A stretch of DNA of 32,151 nt from Catajapyx aquilonaris. Taxonomy: Eukaryota. Under the pieces are notes generated by a model. The model ran no database searches and was not told where the DNA came from. It saw only the letters and a program-made list of their open reading frames with translations. Positions 140 through 29,234 of this stretch are shown here, piece after piece. The DNA is taken from NCBI GenBank assembly GCA_000934665.2, contig JYFJ02004498.1, positions 1-32,151 of the forward strand. Reading direction: 5' to 3'. How positions within the stretch are numbered: the stretch's first letter is position 1; the number at the start of each line of letters is the position of its first letter. The position numbers were made by a program, and so were the translations under genes.

Positions 140-2192
140 GTTGTTGTTGTTTAATTATTACTATGTTGTTGGAGTATGCCTTTGCGTTTCATGTCGAATG
201 TAGGGACAACAGAATTATTAATCAGTACAGAGCCGGTCAATAGTACAGTAGAAACCTGCACGTACAGTAGGCTAATGCATAAGGGAGGTCACTTCTAAAC
301 ATGCTGCTTGATCAAAAGACTTTTGCACAAGGTCACATCGATTGAACGACTCTAATCGTTATATTTGCACTCCAATGATATATTCACTAATATTGTATAA
401 CTTTTTTGAACATTGCATATGTCACCTCAACTTGATGAGTTTAAATGCAGTGCATCTTTATTCACATTATTAATTTTCCAAATGAATCGTCATACGCCTA
501 AACTTCGTCACTTATGTGGAGGAGAATCCAGCTGAACAGGATTTCTAGTGAAAAATGGCACAACCTACAGTAAGTGGAAAACATATTAAGGTCAACTCAA
601 AGTATAGTACATTCCCACCGATTGCTTTTATTTTCACTTTGTCAGAGTTTAAGTGAAATATTGTTACATTAATTCGAGTCATTGGCAGTTGCGTGCGCAT
701 AACAAAAATCCTATGGACTGATCAGTTCATTCGTGAGAGTTCGAAATCACAATCACTATTTGTTGCATTGAAAATGTGTACACTGTACAGTCTTGCAATA
801 AAAATAAATCAAATTAAGAGTACTCGAAATATTAAAAATGCTTTAAGATGAATTATTTAAACACAACTGCTCTCTCATACATCATAGGTTCTGGACTTCT
901 GGTGATACGCTATAAAAAGATTAGAGAAGAGTTCATGAATGTATATGGTGTGTGTGCCCACCACAGCAAGCCCGCAAGGCTTATTGATTAGGAAAAAAAA
1001 AAAAGATTACAGAAGAGTGCTAGTTAACATAGTTATATGATTGAGACGACAAGGTGTACAAAATGAACAGAGTGAACATCTACGTTTGCCTCTCACAATC
1101 TCTCTTTAAATAGGTTACGCAATGAAAATATCACTTCAGTTAGTTTTATCAAAAGCAGGTAAACTATACCCACAGTCTACTATAGCTCCATCCAGCTTAC
1201 ATAGCTGTTTATGTAAATCCCAAGCCAACATAATATCTGGAAGACTGGAACCTAAAATCACCTCTAGCATGTGACAATAATTGTAATGTAATTAATAATC
1301 TTGTGAAATAAATTGAAATCTGCCTGAGACAATGTCACCGCTTCTTCTTCCAAAACTTCCACCACTTGCCAGTTGCTGCCTGTTAAATTAATTGAAATTA
1401 ATTTAATCCGCTCTTACATGAAACATCTTCTCGGTTGATATGATCTATAAATACATCTACAGTAGTTGGTGAAATAGGTAAAACTTCAAAGACAGATGAG
1501 GCATTAAAAGGACTCACATTCAGATATTGCGCCACATTTTTGTGACCGATCACATTGGCCAGGTCAGCTGGTGTTTCTCTTTTCTTGTCCTTGGCCCTTG
1601 GATTGGCCCCTTTGGACACCAGGAACTGGACCATCTTCAGGCGGCCATTCAATGCTGCCTCGTGAAGAGGGGTCCGATCACCCCACCCCTTGACCTCCAC
1701 CTCGACCCCTTCCTTCAGCAGGAGGTCAACCACTGGGAGGTGGCCTTCTCTTGAAGCCAAGTGGATGGGCTGGTATCCGTCACTGGCCAAAGCGTGTATG
1801 TTAGTGCCTCTTCTGATTAGGAGTTGACAAGTCGAAGGGTTTCCCCCTTCGGCTGCCACATGGAGGGGTGTCAATCCGCCAGCCCCTTCCTGGTCCACAG
1901 GCCACCCTTCCTCCAACAAGAGGGACACCACCTCGTCCTGTCCACTTCCGGCTGCCATGTGTAGTCCACCCAGCCCTCTCTCCCCAACCTCCTCCAACAA
2001 GCCTCCCACTCCCCCCATCCTCTCAACCACCCCCCTCACCTCCTCCAATCCGCCCTTTTCGCAGGCTGAGAGAAACATCCTCACCTGAAAAAAAATATAG
2101 GAACATCGGTCATGCAATAGTAGTAGTAATATACCGCGACGCGTAAAAGACTAAAGGCAATCGTTATAACTTCCTGCGGCTGGGTTGTTGGG

Positions 2193-3161: not shown

Positions 3162-6100
3162 TTGGGCCTGGTGCATTATTTTATCAGTGCACTAAAGCCG
3201 ACCAAAGTGGGTTTATTTCATTCATTTTCATAATGCCGGCACCTTGTATTCAAGGTCTTCTCTTTCACTTGTAGTGCACTTCTTGCTACTACTGTAACTA
3301 TACATGGGATTTTTGTGGAGACTTTGGAACTGTACCTATGCTCAGTACACAGTACATGCAGACTTACACTGTCTTTAATATTCATGGCTCGGTAGTTGTA
3401 AACGTAATAACCTTGCCTGTTTATTTTGTCCCGAAGAGTGCTCCTGACCAGCATGTGAACCACGCCACTCCTTCTCCTTTTGCTTCAGAAGGAGGGAGAG
3501 GGAAGGGTGGCCTAGTTCTTCTGCCCTATCTCCAGGGGTTATGCCATCCCAGTCTCTCCTATAGTTGGGTCAGCTCCTCTCTCCAGGAGGAGGTGGACTG
3601 TGGACGTATGACCATAACATGCAGCGATGTGCAGGAGGGTGAAACTCCACACACACACGTGGTCCACTTCCATACCCATGTCGAGAAGAAATTTGACCAC
3701 ATCGGAGTGACCCGCATAGGCAGCCCAGTCGATTCCACTATACTCTTCTACCCTCCTCTCCACGTCCACTCCCCTCCTGTCCACACTATCCTGTACATCC
3801 GACAAGCGACCTTCCTTGCAGGCGTCTATGTATTCGGATATGTCCAACTGAAACAGACGACAGGACACGACTAGGAGTAATAAACAATGCAAAGTAAGTA
3901 ATATGTGTGAAACTCCCTGTATATACAGTAAATCCACCTTTCGCATTCCATCCAGTAATGACATCACTTCTCTCTCAACAACCATGGATGCCAGACGTTG
4001 TGATGGATCAGGAAGAAGCATCTTCCTCAGGATCTCTGCTTCACTCGAGTTCAGTCGAAGAAAGTCCTCTGGGTATGGGTCCTGATTTCTGAGGAGTCCA
4101 AAGACACGTCTCCTCTCTGCCGCATCATCTCCAAAGGGATACAGAATTTCATAAAGGATGAGGCCAAGAGAAAACACGTCTGATTTGGACCCATACCCCT
4201 TTCCATCCAGCTGCTCGGGGGACATGTACATATGGGTCCCAACACCAGCCGTTTGTTCCTGTGAATTAGGGTTCTTGAAAGAGGATTCTTGACCCGACTG
4301 CTCCGTTTCATAGGCCTCGATCAAGGAGGTGCTGAGACCAAAGTCCCCTATTTTGATCTTCTTTCCGTCAAGAGTGAAGAGAATATTATGTGGCTTGAGA
4401 TCACGATGGATCATGCCTTTACTGTGGAGGAAGCAGACCCCTGACACGATCTGCTGGAAAATGGACAGTTTCGCGAACTTGCAAGACTTGAATCCCTCTT
4501 CCAGCCTGTGACCGAGAGTCTTCTCGTGGCATAACTCCATCTGGATGTAGAGCAGGTCCATGGTTGGTCCATAGACGGGAAGCGGTGCGGTAAAGTATTC
4601 AGAGGCCTCCTTACTCGCTTCTTGACCATTGGAAGTGGACATGTCGCAGTTGAGAAGTGAGGCGTCCCATTCCTTTTGGAGGTAGCGAGGCGGGTGTTCC
4701 TCCCAAGAGTGGTAGTATCTGACGATGTTCTCATGTTCAAGCACAACCAGTGCTCGGACCTCCCTCAGGATGATGTCCTTGTACTTTTGATCTGCAGGCA
4801 GCCGAACCCTCTTTACGGCGTAGATGGCCTTGGCTATGTTGTACTCTGCCTTAAACACATCTCCAAAGGACCCTCTTCCCAGCAGATCCAAGTGGGTGAA
4901 ATTCAACATGTACCATGATTGGAATGTACGAGTAGGCTGACCTCCAATCTCTTCTCCACCAGATCTGAACGCGACATGAAATTGTAATGAAATTATTAAC
5001 ACAATTATGTGCTGGCTCGTAAATGTTTAGGAACAGCCTATCCCTAAGGTAGATACGTATATTGAGTGTTGTGATGTTGCATGCACTCACCTGTACTGTC
5101 TGGCATGAGTTGAGTTCAAGTGACCCATGATGAATCGATGCACGTGTATGTGACCCTTGAGAAGAGCGAGTGAGGCGGGTGTGGCCTCCTTCTTGTCCAT
5201 CGCCTGGGGGTCACTCTTTCCTTCCACCAAGAGGATCCTGGCCACCTCCAGATGTCCAAACATGCAGGCCAAGTGAAGAGGGGTATGTCCGATGTGGATG
5301 GTGCAGGCTTCCACCGAGGCCCCTTTGTCCAGCAGGATTCTGCAAGTGTCAGTCAGGCCTCTTCTGGCAGACCAGTGAAGGGCTGTCCTTCCGTGGTCGT
5401 CCCTCGCGTCCACCTCCTCGTGTCCAATCCTGTCCAGAAGACACTTGCAGGTGTCCACCTTCCTGGCCCTACACGCGATCATCAGGGGGGTCTCCTGATA
5501 ATCGTTCCTCTTATTCACCTTCACTCCTTCTCCCAACAGTCTCCCGACGTCCTTATCTCTTCCGATGGCTGCCATGATGTGAATGTCCTGCTTAATCCCT
5601 AAGAGGAACGTGGTCATGAAACCTTGATCTTTCTTGACAGCCACTCCAACAGGCGTCATCTTCTCCCGATTATTTTCTTTGGGATCTGCCCCCCACTCCA
5701 AGAGAAGCCTCCCCGCAACGAGGTGTCCAAATTCCGCAGCTATGTGGAGACAGGTGTCTCCTGACCTGGTCTTCACCATTGGGTCGGCCCCTTCCTCCAG
5801 CAGGAAGCGACACACAGGCGGCCAGTTGTTCTCCGTCGCTTCGTGCAGAGCAGTCTTCTCTTGGTCAGTGGAGGCCCTATTGACCCTGGCCCCCCTCTTG
5901 ACCAGCTCCTGGCACACCTGCAGCCATCCCCGTCTGGAGGCCACCATCAGTGGGGTGACCCCATTCCTGCTCAGGGCGTCCACATTGTCCCCTCTGTCCA
6001 ACAGCTGCTTGACATTGGTCAGAGACCCATTCTCGGCTGCCCAGTGCATGTCTGCCAGACTTTTGTCCTCCGATGCCACTGGTGCTGCTGCCATATCCCT

Positions 6101-8162: not shown

Positions 8163-9372
8163 AGACGCCCATTTCTGGTGTAGGTTCCTGTATGAGCAAC
8201 CAAGTACACTTGGCAGCTGATTTTTTAACAAACCCCGTACGGTAATGGGTGAATTTCATTTAGGTTCAAGTGTGTCATCATCATCATCATCATGTTGTTG
8301 TTGTTTAATTATTCCTGTGTTGTTGGAGTATGCTTTTGCGTTTCATGTCGAATGTAGGGACAACAGAATTATTAATTAGTACAGAGCCGGTCAATAGTAG
8401 GCTACTGTAGAAACCTGCACGTACAGTAGGCTCATGCATAAGGGAAGTCACTTCTAATCATGCTGCTTGATCAAAAGACTTTTGCACAAGGTCCCATCGA
8501 TTGAATGACTATAGTAGTTATATTTGCACTCGAATGTTATGTTCACTAATATTGGATAACTTTTTTGAACAATGCATATGATGTCACCTCAACTTGATGA
8601 GTTTAAATGCAGTGCATCGTGGTATCTTTATTCACATTATTAACTTTCCAAATGAATCGTTATACGCCTAAACTTCGTCACTTAATAATATGTGGAGGAG
8701 AATCCAGCTGACTTTGTAAGTGGAAAATGCAGGTTTTCAAGTGAAAATGGCTCAACCTATATAGTAGTGGAAAAAATATTAAAGCCACCTCAAAGTACTA
8801 CATTTCCACCGTTTGTCTCAGTGGAAGTGGAATATTTTTACATTAATGCGAATCATTGGCATTTGAGTGCCATAACAAAAATCCGATGGACTGATCGGTT
8901 CATTCGTGAAAGTTCAAAATCACAATCACTGTCTGTTGCATTGAAAATGTGTAGGCCTACAGTTTCGCAATAAAAATAAATCAAATTAAGAGAACTTGAA
9001 ATTCAAAATGCTTCAAGATTAATTATTTTAACACAACTGCTCTCTCATACATCATAGGTTCTGGACTTCTGGTGATACGCTATAAAAAGATTAGAGAAGA
9101 GTTCTTGAATGTATATGGCGTGTGTGCCCCCCAAAGCAAGCCCGCGAGGCTTATTGAGAAAGGAGTAGGAAAATAAGAAATAAATAGATTACAGAAGAGT
9201 GTTGGTTGACATAGTTATGATTGATATTACATGGTATATGCAAAATGAACAGAGTGGACATCTACGTTTGCCTTTCGCAATCTCTCTTTAAATAGGTTAC
9301 GCAATAAAAATATCACTTCAGTGAGTTTCATCAAAATCAGCTCATCAACTACCCACAGTATACTGTACTATA

Positions 9373-10679
9373 GGGCAATTCCACGTGAACGTGATCACCT
9401 TTTTCACGAAAAAATTTGCCCGTCGATGAGTGTGAGATATGTTTGAGTCCATGTCAAGTTATGACCTTTCCCGTAAGGATTTGGTCCGCCGATGCGTGGT
9501 TGCCTATCTACAGGCGTAAAATGTACTTTGATCACATTTACACGACAAGATGTAGTAAATGCTTGATATGATACAAGTTTCATGTGTGAAATTGTCTCCT
9601 CTTTTCGACAAAAATGCTAACTTCCTGATAGATGTGCAAATTCATGGCAAAAAGCGAGAATTTTGCAAACAAAGCAATTTTCAAAACGAGAGGCGAAGTT
9701 AAATACCATCAGTCATCACATTGATATCAAAAAATTCCTCATAGTGTATGTCCTCTATCAGCCATATACAAACGGAATTTTGGCATGCGCAAGGGTTACG
9801 GAGCTATAATCACTGACGTGGAGGGGTGCAGGAGTGCAATATATTCCATTATAGTGAAAGCAAGGGGCCCGTATATGGATCCGCACGGAATTCCGTACAG
9901 GCCTCAACCGTGAACATTCATTTGGACTGTGACTAGGAACGAATAGAAGAATGAATATAAAAATAAAAAGTAGGCTACATGTTTCTCTATTGTAAATAAT
10001 CAAGCATATTTTAACACACACTTGACACTTGTGAAAATTGAAACTGTGTTGAACATGACAAGGGAATTTTCATTTATTCTTACTATTCTATGGTAAATTT
10101 TTTTTGAACTATATTATTAAGTGAATTAAACACAAAGGACAAGCGTACACTATACCTGAGACATGAAGACGGACCTAGGTGGGCCGCTCATTTTCATTCA
10201 GCGGCGTGGCCACTAGCGCAACGATCCACGTCAGTACCTATAGCTCCGGAACCATTTCGTATTCCAAAATTCAGTTTGTACCACTGATAGAGGACACTGT
10301 GAGGTGTATTTGATATCAATATAATGCCATTTGACCTTGGCTCTCTTTTTGAAAATGTCATTTGTTTGCAGAAATGTCGCATTTTGACATGAATTTGCAC
10401 AGCTATCGGAAAGTGACTATTTTTGTCGGAAAGAGGAGACAATTTCACACATGAAACATGTATTACATCATGCATTTACGTTGTCATGTAAATGTAATAG
10501 GGGGGCGCCTCTAACCGTGATCCAAGTGCAATTAGCGCCTGTAGATAGGCAACCACGCATCGGCGGAACAAATCCTTATGGGAAAGGTCATAACTTGACA
10601 TGGACTCAAACATATCTCACACTCATCGACGGGCAAATTTTTTCGTGAAGAAGGTGATTACGTTCACGTGGAATTGCCC
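9373..10679. mobile_element. Non-autonomous DNA transposon with ~450-bp TIRs and TATA TSD
   Basis: Termini GGGCAATTCCACGTGAACGT / ACGTTCACGTGGAATTGCCC; inverted homology ~9373-9823 versus ~10225-10679; TATA at 9369-9372 and 10680-10683; empty site ctacTATAgctc at ~1177-1188 in unit A. Superfamily uncertain (Sola- or Kolobok-like). Confidence 0.92.
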
Positions 10680-10825
10680 TATAGCTACATCCAGCAGCTA
10701 TACAGAGGTCTCTATGTAAATTCCAAGCCAACATATCTGGAACCTAAAATCACCTCTAGCATGTGACAATTGTAATGCGTAATTAATAATCTTGTTAAGT
10801 AAATTGAAATCTGCCTGAGACAATA

Positions 10826-13800
10826 TCACCGCTTCTTCTTCCAAAACTTCCACCACTTGCCAGTTGCTGCCTGTTAAATTAATTGAAATTAATTTAATCC
10901 GCACTTACATGAAACATCTTCTCGGTTGATATGATCTATAAATGCATCTACAGTAGTTATTGGTGAAATATGTAAAACTTCCAAGACAGAGGCATTAAAA
11001 GGACTCACATTCAGATATTGCGCCACATCTTTGTGACCGCTCTCATTGGCCATGTCAGCTGGTGTTTCTCCATCCTTGTTCTTGGCCCTTGGATTGGCCC
11101 CTTTGGACACCAGGAACTGGACCATATCCAGGTGGCCATTCAATGCTGCCTCGTGAAGAGGGGTCTGATCACCCCGCCCCTTGACCTCCACCTCGACCCC
11201 TTTCTTCAGCAGGAGGTCAACCACTGCGAGGTGGCCTTCTGTAGAAGCCAAGTGGATGGGCTGGTATCCGTCCCTGCCCATAGCCTGCAGATTTGCGCCT
11301 CTTCTGATTAGGAGTAGACAGATGGAAGGGTGTCCACATTGGGATGCCACATGGAGGGGTGTCCATCCTCCAGCCCCTTCCTGGTCCACAGGCCACCCTT
11401 CCTCCAACAAGAGGGACACCACCTCTTCATGTCCACTTTTCACTGACAGGTGCAATCCACCAAACCCATCCTCCCCAACCTCCCCCAACAGTCCCCCCAC
11501 TCCTCCCATCCTCCCAACCACCCCCCTCACCTCCTCCAACCTGCCCTCGTCGCAGGCTGACAGAAACAGCCTCACCTGAAAATGAGGAACATCAGTCATG
11601 GAAATAGTAGTACGCCGACGCGTAAAAGACTAAAGGCAATCGTTACAACTTCCTGTGTCTGGGTTGTTGGGGCCTAGTGCATTATTATATCAGTGCACTA
11701 AAGCCGACTAAAGCGGATTTATTTCATTCATTTTCATAATGCCGGCACCTTGTATTCAAGGTCCTCTCTTTCACTTGTAGTGCACCTCTTGCTACTACTG
11801 TAACTACATGTGATTTTTGTGTAGACTTGGTACTGTACACAGTACAATCAGACTTACACTGTCTGTAATAATCACGGGTCGTGGTTGTAAATGTAGACTT
11901 GCCTGTTTGTTTTGTCCAGAAGAGTGGTCCTGACCAGCGTGTGAATCACGCCACTCCATCTCCTTTTGATTCAGAAGGAGGGAGAGTGAAGAGTGGCCTT
12001 CGTCTTCTGCCCTTTCTCCAGGAGTCATGCCATCGAAGTCTCTCCTGGTTGGGTCTGCTCCTCTCTCCAGGAGGAGGAGGACTGTGACCATATGACCACA
12101 ACCTGCAGCTATGTGCAGGAGGCTGATATTCCACAAACCCACGTGGTCCACTTCCACACCCCTGTCGAGAAGAAATTTGACCACATCGAAGTGACCCTCC
12201 ATGGCAGCCCAGTCGATTCCTCTAATCGCTTCTACCCTCCTCTCCACGTCCACGCCTCTCCTGTCCACACTATCCTGTACATCCGACAATCGACCTTCCT
12301 TGCAGGCGTCCATGTATTCGGATATGTCCAACTGAAACATACAAGACACGACCAGGAGTCAGAAACAACGCCAAGTAAGTAATATGTGTCATGCTCCCTG
12401 TATAAACCCACCCTTCGCATTCTATCCAGTAATGACATGTCGACTTCTTTCTCAACAGCCATGGATGCCAGACGTTGTGATGGATCAGGGAGAAGCATCT
12501 TCCTCAGGATCTCTGCTTCACTCGAGTGCAGTCGAAGAAAGTCCTCTGGGTATGGGTCCTGATTTCTGAGGAGGCCAAAGACACGTCTCCTCTCTGCCTT
12601 ATCATCTCCAAAGGGATGCAGAATTTCATACAGGATGAGGCCAAGAGAAAACACGTCTGATTTAGACCCATACTCCTTTCCTTCCAGTTGCTCGGGGGAC
12701 ATGTACATTTTGGTCCCAACACCAGCCGTTTGTTCCTGTGAATTAGGGTTACCACCTGAAGAGGAATCTTGACCCAACTGCTCCTCTTCACAAGCCTCAA
12801 TCAAGGTGGTGCTGAGACCAAGGTCCCCTATTCTGATCTTATTTCCATCCAGAGTGAAGAGAATATTATGTGGCTTGAGATCCCGATGGATCATGCTTTT
12901 ACTGTGGAGGAAGCAGACCCCTGACACGATCTGCTGGAAGAGGGACAGTTTCGCGAACTTGCAAGACTTGAATCCCTCTTCGAGCCTGTGACCGAGAGTC
13001 TTCTCGTGGCATAACTCCATCTGGATGTAGAGCATGTCCATGGTTGGTCCATAGACAAGCATAGGTGCGGTGAAATATTCAGAGGCCTCCTTACTCGCTT
13101 CTTGACCATTGGAAGTGGACATGTCGTACAGAAGGAGAGATGCGTCCCATTCCTTTTGGAGGTAGCGAGGAGGGTGTTCCTCCCAAGAGTGGTAGTACCT
13201 GACGATGTTCTCATGTTCGAGCACAACCAGGGCTCGGACCTCCCTCAGGATGATGTCCTTGTACTTTTGATCTGCAGGCAGCCGAACCCTCTTTACGGCG
13301 TAGATGGCCTTGGCTATGTTGTACTCTGCCTTAAACACATCTCCAAAGGACCCTCTTCCCAGCAGATCCAAGTGGGTGAAATTCAACATGTACCATGATT
13401 GGAATGTACGAGTAGGCTGACCTCCGACCTCTTCTCCACCAGATCTGAATGCGACATGAAATTGAAATGAAATTATTAGCACAATAATGTGCTGGATCGT
13501 AAATGTTTAGGAAGAGCCTATCCCTAAGGTATATTGAGTGTTGTGGTGTTGCATGCACTCACCTGTCCTGACTGGCATGAATTGAGTTCAAGTGACCCAT
13601 GATGAATCCATACACGTGTCTGTGACCCTTGAGAAGAGCGAGTGAGGCGGGTGTGGCCTCCTTCTTGTCTATCGCCTGGGGGTCGCTCTTTCCCTCCACC
13701 AAGAGCAACCTGGCCACCTCTAGATGACCAAACATGCAGGCCAAGTGCAGAGGAGTATGTCCGATGTGGATGGTACAGGCTTCCACCGAGGCTCCTTTGT

Positions 13801-14569
13801 CCAGCAGGATTCTGCAAGTGTCAGCCAGGCCGCTTCTGGCAGACCAGTGAAGGGCTGTCCTTCCGTGGTCGTCCTTCGCGTCCACCTCCTCGTGTCCAAT
13901 CCTGTCCAGAAGGCACTTGCAGATGTCCACCTTCCTGGCCCTACACGCGATCATCAGGGGGGTCTCCTGATAATCGTTCCTCTTATTCACCTTCACTCCT
14001 TCTCCCAACAATCTCCCGACGTCCTCATCTCTTCCGATGGCTGCCATGATGTGAATGTCCTGCTGAATCCCTAAGAGGAACGTGGTCATGAAACCTTGAT
14101 CTTTCTTGACAGCCACTCCAACAGGCGTCATCTTCTCCCGATTATTTTCTTTGGGATCTGCCCCCCACTCCAAGAGAAGCCTCCCCGCAACGAGGTGTCC
14201 AAATTCCGCAGCTATGTGGAGACAGGTGTCTCCTGACCTGGTCTTCACCATTGGGTCGGCCCCTTCCTCCAGCAGGAAGCGACACACAGGCGGCCAGTTG
14301 TTCTCCGTCGCTTCGTGCAGGGCAGTCTTCTCTTGGTTAGTGGAGGCCAGATTGACCCTGGCCCCCCTCTTGACCAGCTCCTGGCACACCTGAAGCCATC
14401 CCCGTCTGGAGGCCACCATCAGTGGGGTGACCCCATTCCTGCTCAGGGCGTCCACATTGTCCCCTCTGCCCAACAAGAGCTGGACAGTGGTCAGAGACCC
14501 ATTCTCGGCTGCCCAATGCAACTCTGCCAGGCTCTTGTCCTCCGCTGCCACTGCTGGTGCTGCTGCCAT
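10826..14569 (-). CDS. Ankyrin - PERK-like eIF2-alpha kinase - ankyrin protein with C-terminal KWWKFWKKKR tail, copy B (1026 aa)
   Basis: Exons 14569-13563 (about 9-10 ANK), 13444-12412 (kinase), 12331-11903 (ANK, GC donor CAG|GCAAGT), 11575-11009 (ANK), 10870-10826 (AATGKWWKFWKKKR*); total 3081 nt, all phases compatible. ATG in gccATGg context just after a splice acceptor. eIF2aK motifs HENIVRYYHSWEE, insert, LYIQMELC, HRDLKPHN, DLG, TAGVGTKMYMSPEQ, KSDVFSLGLILYEIL. Confidence 0.85.
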
Positions 14570-15803
14570 GGCGAATCCCTGCAAAGTGCAGTATCAGTAC
14601 CATATAGTTAGAATATTGCAAGTAGCCCTACAGATTGGCAGTATCAAATGCCTGATAAGTAGGTCTACGCCACCGTACAGAGGACTCAAAAGCGGGCAGG
14701 CTTATGTCGTCTGGATCTCTGCGAAGAAAAAGGACGTGATAAGCAGGTTTTTCCTATATTGCCAGCCATTATCTGAAAATGAGGTGACGTATATACCGAT
14801 ATCTGTGAACGGGCAAAAATAGTTGCCCTATGCGCTGCTCGAGTAAGATTAATACAAGATGAATAAGGTGCCATAGAGGTGACCTGGGAAAGAGTTATGA
14901 ATATGATACCAGTGTAGGTGCTAAATCACAGTGATTCACTTTGCGTAACAATGTGGTGTGACATTTCAAATGAAATCTTTTAAAAACATTTATCACAACA
15001 AACCACTCCACAAACCCTGAATGTCACATCATCCGTATATTATGATTATTATGACTGTAATTGTTATGTAATTATCCATGGCATTTTCTCTGCAAGAAGT
15101 AATGAACTTCGACCCCAGTTATGAGTGCAATATGACCCACATTGAATGAAAACTTCACATCTCATTTCTTCACTCTCAGATACAAGACGAAATTAGCGTC
15201 CTTAACATGCGATTTACCTTATATAATCTTGATCAAACCTTTCCGCTTGTCCGACACATTAAAAGATTCCTTGGTCACAAATTTACTAGACTCTTTTCCA
15301 GCCAGAAGATACTTTCCTTCGTGCCCAAAGGAAGCTTCCATTGGTTGTGCAAATACGTGGAAGGTACGGTATACGTGTACGAAACACATCATGAAAATGA
15401 TCGCACCCATCTTGCATTGTTTCTCAGGTGATATCTTACCTCCGATGTGTAAATGCAATGTGTTTCACTGTACAGTTGTCCACCCCACAGAGGAATCGTC
15501 CTAACAGGCCTGTGTCGTCTGGATCACTGCGTAGAAAAGGATGTGATAAGAAGGCCCTTTCCTCTATCTATCCCCAGCAGTTATCTGAAAATGAAGTATA
15601 CCGATATCTATCTCAAAAATAGATTCTTTGCGCTGCTCAAATGAAATCAATAAGGTGCTACAGGTGCTATAGAAAGATTTGTGAAAATGATACAAGAGTC
15701 GGTGCTAAATTACAAATTAATATCTACTAATTCTTTTATTATAATAATGCTTTTTTAATGCGTCGTTGTCGTTGTCGTTTATTGTATCTACAGTATTTTA
15801 GAA

Positions 15804-15966
15804 TCTCTCTATATATAAATCAGAAGGTTTGTCTGTAGGTCCGGGCTACCTAACCCACTTTCGGACTGCTGACAGTGAGAGTGCTGAAATTTGGCATACC
15901 GATGTCTTATAAACTTAATTCATTTACGTATCAATCCCCGAGTGAATAACGGGTCCCCTGCTATAG
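15804..15966 (+). mobile_element. Short non-autonomous Helitron-like element
   Basis: 5' a|TCTCTCTATATATAAAT...GTTTGTCTGT, internal CTGAAATTTGGCA, 3' imperfect hairpin cccgagtgaataacggg then CTATAG|t; absent from unit A. Confidence 0.5.
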
Positions 15967-17156
15967 TTTTATCAATGTACAGGACGGCTAAAAGCACTGT
16001 TGAACACACGTGAACAGTGTTAAAATCTCTTTCTCATTTCTCCGGTTCGTTGTAGTTCACATAGCAGGGTACGTTCTTGCCCGGTCGTACCAAAAGTATT
16101 GTATAGCGGACAGTTGTAAGCAAACGTGTTATTAGTAGTGGACACCACCCTGTAGTTTGGCACACAACCAATAGAAATCGAGATATTGGGACAACAAAGT
16201 GCATATTTTGGTGGAAGGGACCTCTGAGATGATTCAACTATTTTTACCCGTCTCGTAAGATGCATAATCTATTTTGACCTGGAGAGATAGCATTACTGAA
16301 CTGATAAAAATGATAACCTCTGGGGTCACAGGAAGAGCTTTTCTAAGCACAACTTGTCCTTCGCACGAGCTCAGTTGTTCCCTGCTTGTGAGAGGAACAT
16401 ATCATCTGAGCCCATCTCGAGGTAAATTGATAGAGTGTTCACTTTCAAAACAAGGCCTGGTATTCCATCGTGATATGGAAAAAAAGACGCATCTACACAT
16501 TGTGGTAACATTGTGCTTTCAGAAAACGTGAATTTATCACACGTTCTTCTAATATGCAATATTCCACCGTTTATGTTATGTACATTTTACATTATGTAAA
16601 TTATGCACAATTTATGTACTACATTCTACATTATGTAAATGCTGTATTTCATCATGTACCATTCAGTTATTGCTTTTTTGTATTAAGCTGTTTCAATTCC
16701 TTTTGAATTGTTAATTTTAGTGGTTATCTAGAGTATTCGTTGACAACACTAGAATAAATATATTATAAAATCATATATCCGAGGTCTGATTTTTTGTGAT
16801 AAGAAAATAATTGTGCTGGACTGCAAGTAATATGGCCAATGTCCAATACGGAATTTGGGGGGTCAAGTTAAAGTTGTGAGAAATAACAAAATCTTACACA
16901 ATGTGGCCAACTTTTGCATCACTTTATATAGAAGGATTTGGCTGTCTTTCTAAATGTCACATACCAGTTGTTGGACCTACTGTAATACCCTACGTAATAA
17001 AAACTTATTTGAGTTCACGACCCTTGCAGCAGCAGTTTGACCTCCGCATGAGTGTCGAGACAGTGCAGCTTTAATCGTGAAATGTGCAATCACATGGTAG
17101 TGCACTGCTGGTGTAGACTGGAGGACTGTGTGGACAAAATATTTTCGGATTGACTG

Positions 17157-17194
17157 TATAAAGTCACGGGGAAGTCACTGTGATGGCCGTCAGT
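17157..17194 (+). promoter_or_regulatory. Candidate core promoter of ANK1 (TATA box + arthropod-type Inr)
   Basis: TATAAAG at 17157 and TCAGT at 17190; spacing slightly long. Confidence 0.35.
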
Positions 17195-18688
17195 GAATAT
17201 GAGTCTCCCTCATGCTGGAGCAGAAGAAGAACCAGCTCCACGCCCATGTGTCCAATCAAGAGGATTCGACGAAACAAGCCGAATAAGGGTGTCTCTGAAG
17301 CTGATTCGATCCAGCTTCCCAGCTCTGGTCCAGACACGAGTCAAATCTTGCTGGACAAAATGGCCGACCAGTTCAGAAGAAGCGTGTATCGCAGGACACC
17401 TCGAGGGTCCATCGCAGCAGAGAGCGTCCAGTCGGTGTCCATACTTCTGGAGAACAAAGAACAGGTGTTGGATGATCATCCACCTTGTCAAGACGACACT
17501 GCAAAACATGCCAAAAAGGTAACGCTTATTCCAACAATACACTAGTTGGTGTTCGGTGCTGTTAATTCATGGAACCAAATGTATATCTTCAGGTGGCTAA
17601 ATTTCTCACTGCCTGCAAGGAAGGCCGGTTGCAGGAAGCACAGGGTGTTGTTGAAGGAATGGGAGGTGTTGGACAGCTGTTTGAAGAAGAGGACAAGGAC
17701 GGATGGAGTGGACTTCACCTGGCGGCCAAAAGAGCTAAGGATGATGTGGTGTCCTTTTTGTTGAAGGAAGGGTGGCCTGCGAATCAGGAAGATGCTGTGG
17801 GGGACACTCCTCTTCAGCTGGCAGCCTGCTGTGGTCATCTAACGACCTGCGCTGTGCTGATCCGAGAAGGTGCCAAGGTTGGATCAAGGGACGCGGATGG
17901 AGACGAACCCATTCATTGTGCATCATCCGGAGGTCACCTCGCTGTGGTTGACCTCCTGCTGCAACAAGGGGCCAGGTTGGAGGTCAGGGGAATGAAAGAT
18001 TGGACACCTCTTCACAAAGCAGCGTTCAATGGTCATCTAGAGCTTGTCCAGTACCTGATGTCACGAGGAGCCAATCCGGATGCCAGGGACCAGTTTGGAC
18101 AATCACCATTGGATATCGCAGAGGAAGAGGGCAATACAGAAGTGGCCCGAATTTTGACTGTGAGTGCATTTCCGGTTTCATGAACGTAAAGTAAGCAAAT
18201 TCTACAATTAGCTACAAGCAATACGATAAAATTGTAAAATTTTGCGACACACAAAAAATAAGCAATATTGTTTGATGTCACAATAATGAGAGTTGTTCTC
18301 TTAGTTTGAATTGCTATGACAGACTGGCAGTAGGCCTAATTATTACGTCATCACTACACTCTTAACCACTCTTAACACTATTGAAAAGAGACCCTTTTTA
18401 CCCTCTATTTTATAAGGTAATACATGCAAAAGTTACCTTCTAATAAAGTTACCCTCTAATCTCTAATGTAAGGTAAAAAATTGCCACTTTCTTACCCTGT
18501 ATTTTTACCTTCCACATTTATACCTTATATCGTAGGGGAATCAGGACCCACATTTTACCTTACATTTTCTTACCCTTTATACCTGTAATTACCCTCCTTT
18601 TTACCTTTGCTGTGATTTTTTCTTGCAGAAAGAAGTACGGAAGAGGAGACATTACAAGTGGTGGGAGTTTTGGAGAAGATGGCAGTGA
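17183..18688 (+). CDS. Ankyrin-repeat protein ANK1 with KWWEFWRRWQ tail (~320 aa)
   Basis: Exons 17183-17518 (AAG|GTAACG), 17593-18159 (567-nt ANK module), 18629-18688 (KEVRKRRHYKWWEFWRRWQ*), all phase 0. Start could instead be ATG 17246 (MCPIKR). Confidence 0.82.
18355..18610. repeat. Degenerate TTACC(T/C)T-rich repeat, probable DNA-transposon remnant in ANK1 intron 2
   Basis: Many TTACCTT/TTACCCT motifs plus inverted TAAGGTAA copies; no clear TSD. Confidence 0.35.
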
Positions 18689-19498
18689 CTGTAACCTAAC
18701 TTAAGACAATTTAGCTTATAATCTATTATAAGATTGATAACAGACCACCTTGTGACAAAATAGTGAGATTTTTTTGGTACCTGATTGGTTTGTGCACAGT
18801 TCTGTGACAATGAAAGTGCTTCCAAATGGATTGTTTGTCACTTAACTGTCTTCAGTTGGAATATACACAAGTGACTTGCACACTCCATTAGGCTATATAA
18901 TTACATTAAAAAATAAAAATGGCAACTAAATGATAAGTGCCTAAAATGGCAAGACAAAGAAGTTGTTCCAGTTCCAGTCCATACGTTGTGTTTGTATGAT
19001 ATCATGTGAACAAATAGATGCAAATTTTCGCTATTCCTGACAAAGTCAGATGGAAACCAAATTTTCTATCACAGATTCGGGTTTTGCGAAAATTTCAAAT
19101 TACAATTATCAATTTTCTAAAACTTTCCAATTTTAAATCACGACAGGAGGCGCAAGGAAAGTTAGCCAATGTTTGTAAACAATGTCCCAGCGTGACTAAT
19201 TTTTTGAGATGACAACTGTTTATTAAAACTCTGCTCAATTCTTCTGGTAATCATAGTTAAAAGAAGCTTCCCTGATAAGCAATGCCCGTTTCCAAGGTGA
19301 TGTCCAGTTCTTGATGAGATAAAACACGCCTTAGGGTATCGCCTTTTGCAGGCTATCGCTGTCGCAACATCAGTCTTGAGAGAAGTGCCAAGCTTTTACC
19401 AGAGGTAGAATTAATGTACTTATCTCGCACAGTTTCGCAAACAGTCAGAAGTGAAGTGGTCGAGTCACCTCTAAGGGCATACTGCAACTAGGCTGGGA

Positions 19499-22153
19499 AT
19501 GTCCATATGTAAGGGTATATGTTGCGGATTATGCTGCTACAACTCCGATGGAGATGACAGCAGTGAGTCGACACAATTCTTTCCTAGACGCAACCAGGAG
19601 GTAGGTGGATAGCAAGGCACCTCTAATAATAAGTGACAACAGAAGTTATCTCTGCAGGAAGAGGAACTTCATACTCTTGGGCCCTGGCAGCAGAATTCTA
19701 GGAGAAGAAACAAAAAGGCAAGGCAATAATATTTGTTTAGCACAAGTAGATGCTAAATATGGTTATAAGTCAGTATTATCAGGTTAGGTTAAGTTTGGTC
19801 TGTTACATTAAGCCCCTGATTAAGATGCCCTGGATAGGCTCAGGTGTCAAGATTCTTGTCTGCATGCGAAAGGGGTCGACTGGATGAAGTTCGAGAAAAT
19901 GTTAATGAAATGGGAGGTGTTGCACAGATGTTGAGGGAGGAGGGCAACTGCTGGAGTGGACTTCACCTGGCAGCAAAAGGAGCTAAGGACGAAGTGGTGT
20001 CATTTCTGTTGAGTGAAGGATGGCCTGCAAACCAGGAAGATGTTGGGAAAGACACACCTCTTCACATGGCAGCTTCATACGGTCACGCGACGACATGTGA
20101 AATTCTGATCCAAGGAGGAGCCAACATTCGGGCAAAGGACAAAGACGGTGACCAGCCCATCCACAGCGCTTCGTCTGAAGGCCGTCAAGAAGTGGTTGAC
20201 CTTCTTCTACATCATGGGGCCAGGATGGAAGCGAAGGGAATGATGGATTGGACACCACTTCACAAAGCGGCGTTCAAAGGTCACTCGGAACTTGTCCAGC
20301 ATCTGGTATCAAAAGGAGCCAAAGCAAGGGCCAAAGACGAGGAAGGACGCACACCAGATGACCTCGCCACAGATAGAGGTCACTCAGCCTTAGCCCGATA
20401 TTTGAAAGTGAGTACGCTAAGGATAGCTTCTGTCATTTTGGTCATTGTACGTATGACAAAATAATACTATTGTTACTGGCCACTCAGAGGGTCATCGCAC
20501 CGTCTCCCTGACCGCCAATTTCCTTTACCGCCAACACACATTTTCCTTTACCGCCAAAAGTCTTGACCGCCAATTTCCTTTACCGCCAACACACATTTTC
20601 CTTTACCGCCAAAAGTCCTGACCGCCAATTTCCTTTACCGCCAACGCACATTTTCCTTTACCGCCAAAAGTCCTGACCGCCAATTTCCTTTACCGCCAAC
20701 GCACATTTTCCTTTACCGCCAAAAGTCCTGACCGCCAATTTCCTTTACCGCCAACGCACATTTTCCTTTACCGCCAAAAGTCCTGACCGCCAATTTCCTT
20801 TACCGCCAACGCACATTTTCCTTTACCGCCAAAAGTCCTGACCGCCAATTTCCTTTACCGCCAACGCACATTTTCCTTTACCGCCAAAAGTCCTGACCGC
20901 CAATTTCCTTTACCGCCAACGCACATTTTCCTTTACCGCCAAAAGTCCTGACCGCCAATTTCCTTTACCGCCAACGCACATTTTCCTTTACCGCCAAAAG
21001 TCCTGACCGCCAATTTCCTTTACCGCCAACGCACATTTTCCTTTACCGCCAAAAGTCCTGACCGCCAATTTCCTTTACCGCCAACGCACATTTTCCTTTA
21101 CCGCCAAAAGTCCTGACCGCCAATTTCCTTTACCGCCAACGCACATTTTCCTTTACCGCCAAAAGTCCTGACCGCCAATTTCCTTTACCGCCAACGCACA
21201 TTTTCCTTTACCGCCAAAAGTCCTGACCGCCAATTTCCTTTGCCGCCAAACTGAACAGGGCTCCAAATCCGGTTATTTTAGTAGGGTGCCAACTGGGTCG
21301 CCTGCCTGACCGCCAAAATTCTTTTCCGCCAATAATAGTATAACCTAAGGTTTGTCTGAAATATGTGAGCATACTGCCTATGGTCAGGTGTCAAGATTCT
21401 TGTATGCCTGCAAAAAGGGTCGACTGGAGGAAGTTCGAAAAATAGTTGAGAAGATGGGAGGTGTGAGAAGTCTATTGGAAGAGCATGAAAAAGGTCGGAG
21501 TGGACTTCACCTGGCAGCACAAGGAGCGAAGGATGATGTGGTGTCCTTTCTGATTAGCAAAGCATGGCCTGTGAACCACGAAGATCGTCTACGAGACACA
21601 CCTCTTCAGTTGGCTGCTTCAGACGGTCACATGGAGACATGTAAACTTCTGATCCAAGGAGGAGCCAACATTCGGGCAAAGGACAAAGACGGTGACCAGC
21701 CCATCCACAACGCAGCATCTTTCGGCCATCAAAATGTGGTGGGCCTTCTTTTGCAGCACGGGGCGTTGCTGGAAGCAAAGGGGATGAGGGAAAGGACTCC
21801 ACTTCACAAGGCGGCATTTAACGGTCACAGGGACCTTGTCGACTATCTGGTATGGAAAGGAGCAAAACTGGGGTCCAAAGACGAGGATGGTCGCACACCT
21901 GCTGAACTTTCCGAGGAAGAGGACTACCATGAAGTAGAAGAATATTTGAAAGTGAGTCCGCTTTCTCAGTTCTGGGTCAATCTAACCAATGCTGGATGGA
22001 TGACCTACCATCCTTATTCATTTGAGAAAGTGTTGAATTGATCCCGTCTCATCTGAGGGTAAATGCACATTTCTCTTGCAGGAAGCCGACTTGGAGCAGA
22101 ATCCTGTCGATTGCACATCGTATTTGAAAAAGAAGCTCCGAAGAACGCTCTGA
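19499..22153 (+). CDS. Ankyrin-repeat protein ANK2/3 with Cys-rich N-terminus and two tandem ANK modules (~453 aa)
   Basis: Exons 19499-19600 (MSICKGICCGLCCYNSD...QE|GTAGGT), 19658-19717 (...RRRNKK|GCAAGG), 19844-20407, 21388-21951 (both 564 nt, phase 0), 22082-22153 (EADLEQNPVDCTSYLKKKLRRTL*). Joining the two modules in one gene is inferred. Confidence 0.72.
20508..21250. repeat. 55-bp minisatellite, ~13.5 near-identical copies
   Basis: Unit ctgaccgccaatttcctttaccgccaacgcacattttcctttaccgccaaaagtc with three ACCGCCAA cores; no unique spacers. Confidence 0.97.
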
Positions 22154-22394
22154 AAATTTGGAGAAAAAATGTGACCCTCGAGATGACCGAGACTTTGAAC
22201 TGACAGTCTTCACTAGAAAGGCGTCATAATTTTCTCGCTATCATGGTGATTCTAATGATAACGTAGTGCGTCCTTCGCATGTCTATCACCAGTTCCTGTC
22301 CTTATCTATACAGAGACGTGGCAAATATGTACCTGAACACACATATCACAAGTCAGATCCGTACAGCAAGTATCCTTGGTCGCATGTGGGGAAT

Positions 22395-23446
22395 ATGTTT
22401 TGTTGCGGAAACAAATCGAGCGAGAGTGTCGCAGAATCGCAGAGCTGCAATGAGTGGTCCATTGTGGATGATTCTGCTGGAGAGAAGCTGGAGACACCAG
22501 TCGGACGGAAAGATTCGTCCATATGTAGCCAAAGTGAAAGCACAGCAGCATCTACCATGTTGGAACTGGAGGAAGAAGAGACGGCGCGTTATCGTGAAAT
22601 TCAGAAGACTCGAGAAGAAAAAGCCAAAAAGGCAAGTACTTATTCAGAAAAAATGGACCCATAATATAAACACTACCATTGCAGTTGGCAAGATTTCTCA
22701 TCGCCTGCCAAGAGGGTCGGTTACAAGAGGTGCAAGAGGTAGTGAATGGACTAGATGGGCTGGATGATCTGCTAGGGCTTGCGAACCACGCAGGATTGGA
22801 TGGGCTTCATTTGACGGCGAAGAAAGGGCATGACCGTGTGGTGTCCTTTCTGTTGAGCGAAGGGTGGCCTGCAAATCAGGAGGATGCTGTGGGGGACACT
22901 CCTCTTCAGCTGGCAGCCTACTGTGGTCATCTGACCACATGCGCTGTGCTGATCCGAGAAGGAGCCAAAGTTGGGTCAAAGGACGTGGACGGGGATGAGC
23001 CCATCCATAACGCGTCGTCTGGAGGTCACCTCTCAGTGGTTGACCTCCTTCTGAAACAAGGGGCCAGGTTGGAGGTCAGGGGAATGAGGGACCGGACGCC
23101 TCTTCACAAGGCAGCATTCAATGGTCATCTGGAGTTGGTACAATTTCTGTTGTCCAAAGGGGCCAATCCAGGGGCCAGGGACCGATTTGACCATACACCA
23201 GGTGACCTTGCCAAGGAAGAGGGAGAGACAGAAGTGGCACGAATATTGAAAGTGAGTCCTCTGGACATCCTTACATACATCACGTACTGTGCAGCTGTTT
23301 TGTATTTTTATATTTTATTACTGTGCAATTTATTCCATTTATTTTTAAATTACTCATGAGAAGCAATTATTCCTTCCTCGTTGCAGAAAGCCTTGAAGAA
23401 GGAGGCGACTCGCAAGTGGTGGCAGTTCTGGAAGCGATGGAGTTGA
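22395..23446 (+). CDS. Ankyrin-repeat protein ANK4, MFCCG N-terminus and KWWQFWKRWS tail (~287 aa)
   Basis: Exons 22395-22631 (…EEKAKK|GCAAGT), 22685-23251 (567-nt ANK module), 23387-23446 (KALKKEATRKWWQFWKRWS*), all phase 0. Confidence 0.8.
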
Positions 23447-24172: not shown

Positions 24173-25206
24173 ATGTGGGCCAGGTGGTTCCTACTCTGTG
24201 GAATGATCCTTCTCTCGATCATGGAATTGACCAAAGGCGACGAACAAGAATGCCACATGAGCTGCAAGTGTCCGGGTGGTAGTGAAACCCCGGTGTGTGC
24301 TACTGACGGGAAGACATACGACAACAAATGCAGGCTCCGCTGCGCCAAGACCAATTGTGGCAAGAGTAAGTCAAAAGTCGGGAGTCAATAATAATAATTA
24401 TAACATAATTATATTGTTTTAACTAGCAGTTAAGCTAGGGGCGGCAGAGGGGCTGGGGCGGCAGGGGTGGAGGGAAATTTGACACACCGACAAACCTCCT
24501 CTTATATAATTATGAGGCATTCCAAGTCAAGTGGGCCACACTTTGCCAATACCTCCTCCGATTTTGACCACATTCGAGAATATTTTAGTGTCCATACCTG
24601 TATATGTTAGGCTCAAACCCCGAAAACGGCCATTGGGCGAAAAAAAACGTCCATTCTGCAGAATGCTTCTTGTCCAACCATCCATTCTGCGATCACCTAA
24701 ATGGCACGACGCAGAGGGCTGGGAGTTGTGTCGTTGGAAAGCTACCATCGCTAATTGTGGACCGAAAAATCCTCAGAATTTCATATTTCCCAGCCGTTTT
24801 CGAGCTATGGCCAAAAAACGAAATTTTGCACCTTCGGCCTTGGCCGTTGCGCTCGGAAGCACAACAGTCCCTTCCACCCGCTGATATCTGTTTCCATCCT
24901 CCACTCGACCCGGTCCCGTTTGAACGATCGGGTTCGTCAGAGGACGTATTCAGATCCTCCTCACCTGTAGCGGTGACGTCAGAGGACGTATTCAGAACCT
25001 CCTCACCTGTAGCGGTGACGTCACCGGTGGATGTTCTCTAACCGGGTGCGACCGGGTGCCTAGTCTTTAAAATACTTTAAATCCTCCCAATGCATTTTGT
25101 ACATCAAAACAAGTGCTTCAAAATGTGAGTAACAGCTTTTTTTTTTCTTTCTTTATCATTCGCAGCGACGATCGCTTTCAATCACGATGGACCCTGCAAA
25201 GCCTGA
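24173..25206 (+). CDS. Secreted single-domain Kazal-type protease inhibitor 1 (77 aa)
   Basis: Exons 24173-24365 and 25166-25206 (phase 1); signal peptide, CKC...PVCATDGKTYDNKCRLRCA...HDGPC. Confidence 0.9.
24423..25063. mobile_element. Mosaic of TE fragments in Kazal 1 intron (Helitron-like ends, 42-bp direct repeat)
   Basis: CTAG-terminated ends at 24423 (minus) and 25060-25063 (plus, after ccgggtgcgaccggg); 42-bp tandem duplication at 24935-25020. Boundaries uncertain. Confidence 0.35.
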
Positions 25207-29062: not shown

Positions 29063-29234
29063 CGTACGACACCACCAACTCCTGTACCCTGAGAGAGTCG
29101 GTATACACGGTGCATCGAAGCACTTTTACCTTTACGAGCGTATTAGATACCAATATTTAATTGTCATTATAAAATAAATTATTGAAACACTTTGTTACTT
29201 TTAGCAATATTTTTATTTCACATCAAAAAAAAGG

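What the first reader, a model, noticed from the sequence alone, without database searches (positions are those of the whole stretch)
10826..23446. Hidden terminal mini-exon encodes a conserved KWWxFW(K/R) tail on kinase and kinase-less ANK proteins
Seen (not in the ORF track frame): last exons translate to AATGKWWKFWKKKR* (1379-1335 and 10870-10826), KEVRKRRHYKWWEFWRRWQ* (18629-18688) and KALKKEATRKWWQFWKRWS* (23387-23446). The motif is kept while flanking residues diverge. Inference: a Trp/basic amphipathic membrane-interface anchor, reminiscent of K(P)WWxFW C-termini I recall from bacterial proteins; it could replace PERK's lost TM helix and co-localise the family on one membrane.
Basis: partly seen in the sequence, partly recalled or inferred. 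Interest (0 to 1): 0.75.

Follow-up and report, generated by a model that had tools for sequence, protein, structure and literature searches.

The report
Tryptophan tail exon on ankyrin proteins
Four ankyrin-repeat genes of an animal end in a tiny last exon for a tryptophan-rich basic peptide that also caps many unrelated bacterial proteins; some sister genes appear to carry a lipid-anchor signal in the same place, so the peptide is probably a membrane anchor, though no binding test exists.

Summary
All four exons translate as stated, follow an AG acceptor in phase 0, and are the only WWxFW hits in the window (0.04 expected). Splicing is shown for one of the four: a public contig joins 18159 to 18629 (GT..AG). 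Two more copies lie elsewhere in the genome. Across four divergent variants, WWxFW and a stop nine codons after the first Trp are kept, while intron and UTR are at shuffled level. The bacterial resemblance is real: 48 of 76 in-frame prokaryotic hits lie within 5 residues of a stop, on unrelated families including Pfam DUF3967. Several paralogues instead have a candidate polybasic CaaX mini-exon after the equivalent donor. Best reading (0.62): a short amphipathic Trp/basic helix that binds membrane surfaces, working like MinD/RocS/TubY tails or the RIT1 tail. No binding is shown. 'Replaces PERK's TM helix' is loose: the kinase is PERK-like, but canonical PERK persists, and I infer anionic membranes, not the ER. 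'Co-localises the family' is overstated, since most paralogues lack the motif. This scan noted the peptide before on an archaeal gelsolin, and the CaaX exons on other contigs. New variant of a known kind.

The parts
1335..1379 (-). Gene A terminal mini-exon, AATGKWWKFWKKKR*
   Evidence: identical to B's. A-specific 3' UTR letters are seen in a contig of run X1; no joint seen
1518..2084 (-). Gene A last ankyrin-module exon (189 codons), phase-0 GTGAGT donor
3417..3847 (-). Gene A exon 3 (ankyrin), GC-AG donor; carries a 2-base insertion relative to B, so the assembled A frame stops before exon 4 and the tail
3938..4964 (-). Gene A PERK-like kinase exon (GRGSFG, YAVK, HRDLK, DFG intact)
5091..6094 (-). 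Gene A exon 1, N-terminal ankyrin array
10826..10870 (-). Gene B terminal mini-exon, AATGKWWKFWKKKR*
   Evidence: best-scoring acceptor of 48; splice not observed
11009..11575 (-). Gene B last ankyrin-module exon
11903..12331 (-). Gene B exon 3 (ankyrin), GC-AG donor
   Evidence: X1 contig 11902-12160 with 0 differences
12412..13444 (-). Gene B PERK-like kinase exon (DLG in place of DFG, other motifs intact)
13563..14569 (-). Gene B exon 1, N-terminal ankyrin array; the five-exon model gives an open 1026-aa ANK-kinase-ANK-ANK-tail protein
17183..17518 (+). Gene C (kinase-less) exon 1
   Evidence: X1 contig 17121-17516 joined to 17591 (GT..AG, cut +2 = 17518/17593)
17593..18159 (+). Gene C ankyrin-module exon
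18629..18688 (+). Gene C terminal exon coding part, KEVRKRRHYKWWEFWRRWQ*; the exon runs on as 3' UTR to about 19233 (ATTAAA at 19222)
   Evidence: joint 18159->18629 GT..AG in X1
19499..22631 (+). Gene D (kinase-less) upstream exons, model: 19499-19600 (Cys-rich start MSICKGICCGLCC), 19658-19717, 19844-20407, 21388-21951, 22314-22631. The model gives an open 744-aa protein; a split into two genes is not excluded
   Evidence: no transcript joint seen
22685..23251 (+). Gene D last ankyrin-module exon
   Evidence: D-specific letters present in X1 contigs
23387..23446 (+). Gene D terminal mini-exon, KALKKEATRKWWQFWKRWS*
   Evidence: best-scoring acceptor of 52; outside the stretch laid

Best explanation
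A phase-0 terminal mini-exon, inherited within one branch of a lineage-specific ankyrin / ankyrin-PERK-like-kinase family, adds a 14-19-residue tail. SHOWN: the exon exists; it is spliced in gene C; WWxFW and the stop position are kept while the flanks diverge; as a helix the aromatic residues lie on one face and the K/R and x residues on the other; the same peptide caps many unrelated prokaryotic proteins; several paralogues have a candidate polybasic CaaX exon after the equivalent donor. INFERRED: the tail folds on contact with a bilayer, sinks Trp/Phe into the headgroup interface and pairs K/R with anionic lipids. This gives a reversible, lipid-free membrane anchor that fills the role prenylation fills in sister genes. 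The anchor probably needs avidity (kinase dimers, ankyrin contacts, or the Cys cluster of gene D). The target is more likely the plasma or endosomal membrane than the ER. The match to the bacterial peptide is most likely convergent.
For: Splicing: joint 18159->18629, GT..AG, with 255 letters on the short side. The 16 mismatches on that contig are exactly the 16 gene-D letters upstream of a shared 33-mer, so the side next to the joint is pure gene C. C's tail exon occurs once in G000, so no intronless copy is assembled. Selection: C vs D tail exon 42 of 61 identical, against intron 52% and UTR 44% with a shuffled baseline of 49%; the stop falls 9 codons after the first W in all 4 variants. Helical wheel: aromatics at 300, 340, 0, 40 and 100 degrees, hydrophobic moment 0.59-0.86. 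Slot swap: phase-0 basic CaaX candidates in 7 of 33 paralogue donors, against 1-3 hits in each of 5 phase/strand controls. Three share KKR(x1-2)RNPCxxx*, and two of these have the top acceptor score of their locus. C4100 has a hybrid candidate, PKKYLWWCTIL*. Prokaryotes: 48 of 76 in-frame hits of 111 sampled genome matches, and 28 of 60 of 120 viral matches, lie within 5 residues of a stop. Carriers include cytosolic MerR/DUF3967 proteins and BamD/YfiO lipoproteins, which share no obvious protein partner. Precedents: RocS and TubY C-terminal helices (PMC13042908, PMC7762940); RIT1 lacks CaaX and needs Trp204/Leu207/Phe211 plus basic clusters for plasma-membrane binding (PMC10348673).
Against: No lipid-binding or localisation data exist for this peptide, in the animal or in bacteria. 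Splicing was seen for 1 of 4 window genes, in one run whose kind is not on record. The CaaX exons are predictions without transcripts: 26 of 33 donors had no such candidate, the acceptor score is my own, and one CaaX carrier (C4338) has a broken ankyrin exon. The C6883 tail has net charge -1 overall, so a polybasic patch is not required there, though that copy is broken. Strict W-W-x-F-W identity is more than lipid binding usually needs and fits a protein-binding motif as well. There is no Gly kink as in RocS in 2 of 4 variants. Gene A cannot make the tail as assembled.
Confidence: 0.62

Rival explanations
1. The tail is a protein-docking motif: a Trp-anchored basic helix bound by calmodulin, by an ankyrin groove of a family member, or by another adaptor. 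It would bring kinase-less and kinase-bearing members together without direct lipid binding.
For: W-W-x-F-W is invariant in 4 of 4 variants while net charge ranges from +6 to -1. Basic helices with hydrophobic anchors are the usual calmodulin target (abstract start of PMC7216078; otherwise recalled). The tail is shared by kinase-bearing and kinase-less genes.
Against: The same exact peptide recurs on unrelated cytosolic, periplasmic and phage proteins, which are unlikely to share one partner. Candidate CaaX exons fill the same slot in paralogues. This rival is not exclusive: calmodulin could switch a membrane tail off.
Confidence: 0.22
2. The tail is a structural C-cap of the ankyrin stack: the last ankyrin helix runs on into the tail and the Trp residues pack on the repeat.
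For: In A and B the motif starts 4 residues after the last ankyrin helix. A bacterial ankyrin protein (L296) has similar spacing, and its single-sequence model shows one continuous helix 184-201.
Against: The linker is 9-10 residues in C, D and C6883. Internal modules of D and many paralogues end without the motif. Only 1 of 37 prokaryotic carriers scanned is an ankyrin protein. Model confidence falls to 68-76 over the tail.
Confidence: 0.06
3. The tail is a nuclear-import, nucleic-acid-binding or C-terminal degradation signal.
For: Basic clusters are present (KKKR, RKRR). The TubY tail also binds DNA non-specifically (PMC7762940). Arg-ended or hydrophobic C-termini can act as degrons (recalled, not searched).
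Against: The conserved part is the aromatic core. The last residues differ (KR, WQ, WS, QQ), and the C6883 tail has no polybasic patch.
Confidence: 0.06
4. The exon came in by horizontal transfer from a bacterial ankyrin or other gene that already had the tail (an origin question, compatible with the best explanation).
For: The peptide is the same as in prokaryotes, and one bacterial ankyrin protein ends in GKWWQFWR.
Against: That protein is only 32-36% identical to the module, the generic ankyrin level. The best database relative of the module is 44% or less. The tail is a separate spliceosomal exon. A Trp/Lys/Phe heptamer can arise independently, and one more occurs in frame in an unrelated transporter-like gene here.
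Confidence: 0.04

Closest known systems
Bacterial C-terminal membrane-targeting sequences of MinD, RocS (DUF536) and TubY (PMC13042908, PMC7762940)
   Same: About 10 residues at the extreme C-terminus, basic residues flanking a short aromatic/hydrophobic face, appended to an otherwise soluble protein.
   Different: Here the tail is Trp-dominated (WWxFW), on animal ankyrin proteins, and encoded by its own exon. The Gly kink that is critical in RocS is absent in C and D. No membrane binding has been measured.
Pfam DUF3967 (PF13152) and the uncatalogued prokaryotic KWW[KQE]FW(K/R)* end
   Same: The same heptapeptide near the stop. The DUF3967 model covers it in two MerR-type proteins.
   Different: The window tails do not hit DUF3967 or any Pfam, NCBIfam or PHROG model, and the upstream DUF3967 residues are absent. 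No function is described for the motif in the papers searched.
RIT1/RIT2 (Ras-like without CaaX) C-terminal extension (PMC10348673, PMC13565119)
   Same: An animal family in which a basic tail with Trp/Phe/Leu stands in for the prenylated CaaX end of its paralogues.
   Different: RIT tails are about 35 residues, with three polybasic regions and spaced single hydrophobics, and are described as mainly electrostatic. This tail is shorter with a compact four-aromatic core, and is unrelated in sequence.
PERK (EIF2AK3)
   Same: Best solved relative of the kinase domain (E 2.5e-55, against GCN2 2.9e-48 and PKR 2.4e-39); catalytic motifs present.
   Different: No luminal domain or TM helix in the gene model; ankyrin arrays on both sides. 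A canonical-looking PERK remains elsewhere in the genome. The substrate is untested.

Membership tests
MinD/RocS/TubY-type membrane-targeting sequence | Short, at the extreme C-terminus | tested here: met
   stop 9 codons after the first W in all 4 variants
MinD/RocS/TubY-type membrane-targeting sequence | Amphipathic helix pattern with net positive charge | tested here: met
   moment 0.59-0.86, aromatics within a 160-degree arc; net +6 in the window tails, but -1 for the whole C6883 tail
MinD/RocS/TubY-type membrane-targeting sequence | Lys-Lys-Gly kink before the helix (RocS Gly155) | tested here: not met
   C and D have no Gly; A/B have G-K-WW and C6883 G-Q-WW, in another register (PMC13042908 sections 2.1 and 3)
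MinD/RocS/TubY-type membrane-targeting sequence | Folds on and binds lipid bilayers; needed for localisation | not testable with these tools
   needs liposome and imaging work
Pfam DUF3967 | Match to the PF13152 profile | tested here: not met
   0 families for both tails at E up to 10; 20-24-residue queries are short
CaaX prenylation signal | Cys four residues from the C-terminus | tested here: not met
   no Cys in any of the window tails; met only by candidate exons of paralogues
Tail-anchored / PERK-type transmembrane helix | About 18-20 uncharged residues | tested here: not met
   hydrophobic core of 5-8 residues broken and flanked by charges
eIF2-alpha kinases (carrier genes A, B) | Kinase domain closest to PERK/GCN2/PKR/HRI with catalytic motifs | tested here: met
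eIF2-alpha kinases (carrier genes A, B) | Phosphorylates eIF2-alpha Ser51 | not testable with these tools
   no assay
Calmodulin-binding helix | Ca2+-dependent calmodulin binding | not tested
   no complex prediction was run

The most novel reading that the evidence does not exclude
KWWxFW(K/R) is an undescribed, transplantable membrane-targeting peptide used in bacteria, archaea and phages and, independently, in an animal. In this animal a large ankyrin/PERK-like kinase family treats its last mini-exon as an exchangeable address label (prenyl-CaaX, Trp-helix, hybrid or none). That would sort kinases and kinase-less ankyrin adaptors or decoys to distinct membranes, where they form a stress or immune signalling platform.
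Probability: 0.25. Interest if true: 0.72.

Novelty: new variant of a known kind. Interest (0 to 1): 0.45.

Why it matters
If the tail is an anchor, it names a function for a very common but uncatalogued prokaryotic C-terminal peptide (part of DUF3967). It would also give a natural experiment in which one animal gene family exchanges prenylation for a lipid-free Trp helix by swapping a 45-60-base exon, which is easy to test with short fusions. It would place a large family of PERK-derived kinases at a membrane other than the ER. If the tail is only a local docking motif, the finding is a useful gene-model correction: a missed last exon that changes the C-terminus of several genes.

Tried and rejected
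No RNA holder was listed on record; the one run, X1, has no kind on record. In X1 no joint was listed for the B/A tail and part of the piece table was cut, so this says nothing either way. The D tail lay outside the laid stretch, because a long tandem repeat (20480-21340) lies between. The profile search with the ankyrin module was swamped by giant ankyrin proteins. A database search with the tail itself could not be run (query under the tool's minimum length), so its spread among eukaryotes is open. The ESM Atlas gave no usable hit, which shows nothing. Tails gave no Pfam, NCBIfam, PHROG or PDB match. A suspected decayed tail in the alternative exon at 22082 was rejected: 504, 332 and 7 of 1000 shuffles reached its score, the last on a Lys-codon run. 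My first split of D into two genes was replaced by a single 744-aa model after a better in-frame acceptor was found at 22314. A possible degenerate variant (RRQEWWTFC) in C2682 has a very weak acceptor (0.6) and was not counted. Most of the 78 genome-wide WWxFW-type DNA matches look like chance or other-frame hits. I examined the 30 returned as loci and 20 fetched stretches; only C9669 and C6883 were tied to this family. C-mannosylation (WxxW) was considered and dropped because I saw no signal peptide in the models (by eye; the pathway is recalled). Paper searches that found nothing on the motif or the family: five motif strings, 0 papers; 0; 4 listed, none relevant by title; 1, irrelevant. 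Sequences printed only in figures or supplements are not searched, and most subscription papers are missing. No complex prediction was run.
Full report
1. Observation. The window is contig C2482 of a 285.6-Mb animal genome. It holds four ankyrin genes: A (6094-1335, minus) and B (14569-10826, minus), a tandem duplicate pair with a kinase exon, and C (17183-18688) and D (19499-23446), plus strand and kinase-less. They are the only WW.FW matches in six frames, against 0.04 per window in 200 Markov simulations. With one mismatch allowed there are still 4, against 0.47 expected, and 0 of 100 shuffles reach 4. In all four genes the preceding 189-codon ankyrin exon ends at a phase-0 GTGAGT donor, so the tail joins in frame. 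On my own simple acceptor score the tail acceptor is best of 50 (C), 52 (D) and 48 (B) AGs within 900 nt, and 4th of 54 in A. Read-through would give unrelated ends of 7 to 39 residues.

2. Is it spliced? One run, X1, holds 0.29 of the sampled words; its kind is not on record. Laid on 10690-20470, its contigs skip both predicted introns of gene C with GT..AG ends (17518/17593 and 18159/18629). The contig that crosses into the tail exon runs to 19233, just past an ATTAAA at 19222. That contig has 16 mismatches in its ankyrin part. They equal the 16 C-versus-D differences in 17889-17962, upstream of a 33-base stretch shared by C and D, and none of the 43 differences downstream appears. So it is an assembly-graph chimera whose joint side is pure C, and D's last ankyrin exon is also present in the run. 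C's tail exon occurs once in the assembly, so an intronless retrocopy is not the source. I infer that X1 is cDNA. No joint was listed for A or B, although B exon pieces with 0 differences and A-specific UTR letters are present. D's tail was outside the stretch. Splicing is thus shown for 1 of 4.

3. Gene models. B is open over five exons (1026 aa: ankyrins, kinase, ankyrins, ankyrin module, tail). A has 2 extra bases in exon 3 and stops before the tail as assembled. C is about 320 aa. D is best read as one 744-aa protein with a Cys-rich start, three ankyrin modules and the tail; this is a model only. The kinase belongs to the eIF2-alpha kinase family and is closest to PERK among solved structures. 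The top database hits were fish PKRs and invertebrate PERKs, and none of the 120 listed carries an ankyrin domain. The genome also matches Artemia PERK over its luminal part and kinase on C197, so canonical PERK appears to be retained. The ankyrin module has no database relative above 44% identity among 197 candidates, so the family looks lineage-specific.

4. Conservation. Genome-wide patterns and follow-up found two more ankyrin-linked copies: C9669 (A/B type) and C6883, a broken kinase paralogue ending DAILEQQPGQWWEFWKKQQ*. Across the four distinct variants W-W-x-F-W is invariant, followed by K/R-K/R, and the stop lies 9 codons after the first W, while the linker is unrelated. Between C and D the exon is 42 of 61 identical, while intron (52%) and UTR (44%) are at the shuffled level (49%). 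This points to one ancestral exon under selection for the peptide. In a tree of 34 final ankyrin modules the five tail carriers fall in two well-supported subclades, kinase-bearing and kinase-less. These sit inside a weakly supported group that also holds members without the tail (C6883 was left out because its module is deleted).

5. What sits in the same slot in paralogues. An earlier scan note (e1-7683149) pointed to CaaX micro-exons, and I tested this. The family is large (61 kinase matches, a lower bound). Of 33 paralogue donors with downstream sequence, 7 have a phase-0 candidate exon ending in a basic CaaX, against 2, 2, 1, 3 and 1 hits in five phase and strand controls. Three share KKR(x1-2)RNPCxxx* (C2025, C6322, C4338), and two of these have the highest acceptor score of their locus. 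A fourth copy, on C2119, is broken. C4100 has a hybrid candidate, PKKYLWWCTIL*. Four CaaX carriers group apart from the Trp carriers, with weak support (64/78). None has transcript support here, and 26 of 33 donors had no such candidate; several end in short neutral peptides.

6. The bacterial resemblance. In prokaryotic genomes 76 of 111 hits lie in a frame open for 60 or more codons upstream, and 48 of those 76 are within 5 residues of the stop. In viral contigs the figures are 60 of 120 and 28 of 60. I scanned the 37 C-terminal carriers among the 80 genome loci with full flanks. Of these, 18 have a Pfam match: MerR (4, two with DUF3967, whose model covers the motif), BamD/YfiO (3), TPR (3), AMP-binding (2), and one each of ankyrin, CpsB, cNMP, ParA-like, MORN and CarboxypepD_reg; 19 have none. 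The single ankyrin carrier is only 32-36% identical to the module, and its model ends in one helix with falling confidence. Convergence is more likely than transfer.

7. Mechanism. On a helical wheel the aromatics lie at 300, 340, 0, 40 and 100 degrees and the charged residues mostly on the opposite face; hydrophobic moments are 0.59-0.86. The core is far too short and charged for a transmembrane helix. Papers read: RocS (PMC13042908; abstract, passages, discussion and the first part of section 2.1) shows a ~10-residue basic C-terminal helix that folds only on membranes and depends on a Gly kink. TubY (PMC7762940; passages and section 8) shows a Lys/Phe tail needed for membrane localisation but not sufficient as a single GFP fusion. 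RIT1 (PMC10348673 and PMC13565119; passages) lacks CaaX and needs basic clusters plus Trp204/Leu207/Phe211 for plasma-membrane binding. With the slot-swap result, these make a reversible interfacial anchor the best reading (0.62). Every step from sequence to membrane binding is inferred. Against it: no assay exists, the C6883 tail has net charge -1, and strict aromatic identity also fits a docking motif (0.22). Capping, import/degron and transfer readings are weaker.

8. 'Replaces PERK's TM' holds only in the sense that a PERK-derived kinase without a TM helix may regain a membrane tether. The position, and probably the membrane, differ. 'Co-localises the family' applies at most to one branch: six ankyrin-linked copies were found.

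9. Novelty. Short basic amphipathic C-terminal anchors are a known kind, and so is the replacement of CaaX by a basic/aromatic tail. I found no paper on this peptide or this family; figures, supplements and most subscription papers were not searched, and supplements of the RocS and TubY papers, which I did not open, may show the motif in alignments. Its spread in other eukaryotes could not be tested. The scan had noted the peptide on an archaeal gelsolin and the CaaX exons on other contigs; these notes were leads, not support. Verdict: a real, selected, spliced mini-exon with a probable membrane-anchor function; new variant of a known kind; interest 0.45.

Noticed in passing
L093 / G000:C1591:30226 (minus): KWWQFWK is in frame in an exon of a transporter-like gene, about 25 residues before GAGNLWRFPFLC, which I recall as the SLC6 first-helix signature (family not tested). 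This would be a juxtamembrane use of the same peptide in an unrelated protein.
   Followed up: partly
window 19499-19540 and 22395-22410: Gene D starts with a Cys cluster (MSICKGICCGLCC) and has a CC pair in its linker exon: candidate palmitoylation sites, a possible second anchor.
   Followed up: no
window 3416, 11902, 19718, 22632: The intron before the 189-codon ankyrin-module exon uses a GC-AG donor (AG|GCAAG) in genes A, B and twice in D, but GT in gene C.
   Followed up: partly
L068 / G000:C4100: Candidate last exon ending PKKYLWWCTIL*, combining a Trp pair with a CaaL box; possible link between the two tail types.
   Followed up: partly
L073 / G000:C2485: Candidate last exon ending RAPIFW*, a third, aromatic-ended type.
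   Followed up: no
L309, L320, L337, L339, L353, L360, L369, L381: KWWxFW also recurs internally in a set of related bacterial proteins (F-x-G-N...KWWKFWS), which I recall as BamA POTRA-like; not tested.
   Followed up: no
window 24173-24364(+), 27152-27358(-), 29924-30154(-), 30608-31668(-): Three small Kazal protease-inhibitor genes and a c-type lysozyme gene lie beside the ankyrin cluster, an immune-flavoured neighbourhood.
   Followed up: partly
window 28046-29098(-): A 351-codon open frame with no Pfam or PDB match; a 41-base stretch near 28533-28573 recurs inverted at 29082-29122.
   Followed up: partly
window 20480-21340: Tandem array of a unit of about 58 bases (read by eye) inside an intron of gene D.
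   Followed up: no
window 9364-9822 / 10225-10689 and 29330-29693: Long inverted repeats (80% identical) that look like non-autonomous DNA transposons; one interrupts the 3' region of gene B.
   Followed up: no
window 7890-8159(+): Short open frame with a hydrophobic stretch near its end, duplicated with the A/B unit and on C9669; it resembles the last exon of a receptor-like membrane protein; no Pfam match.
   Followed up: partly
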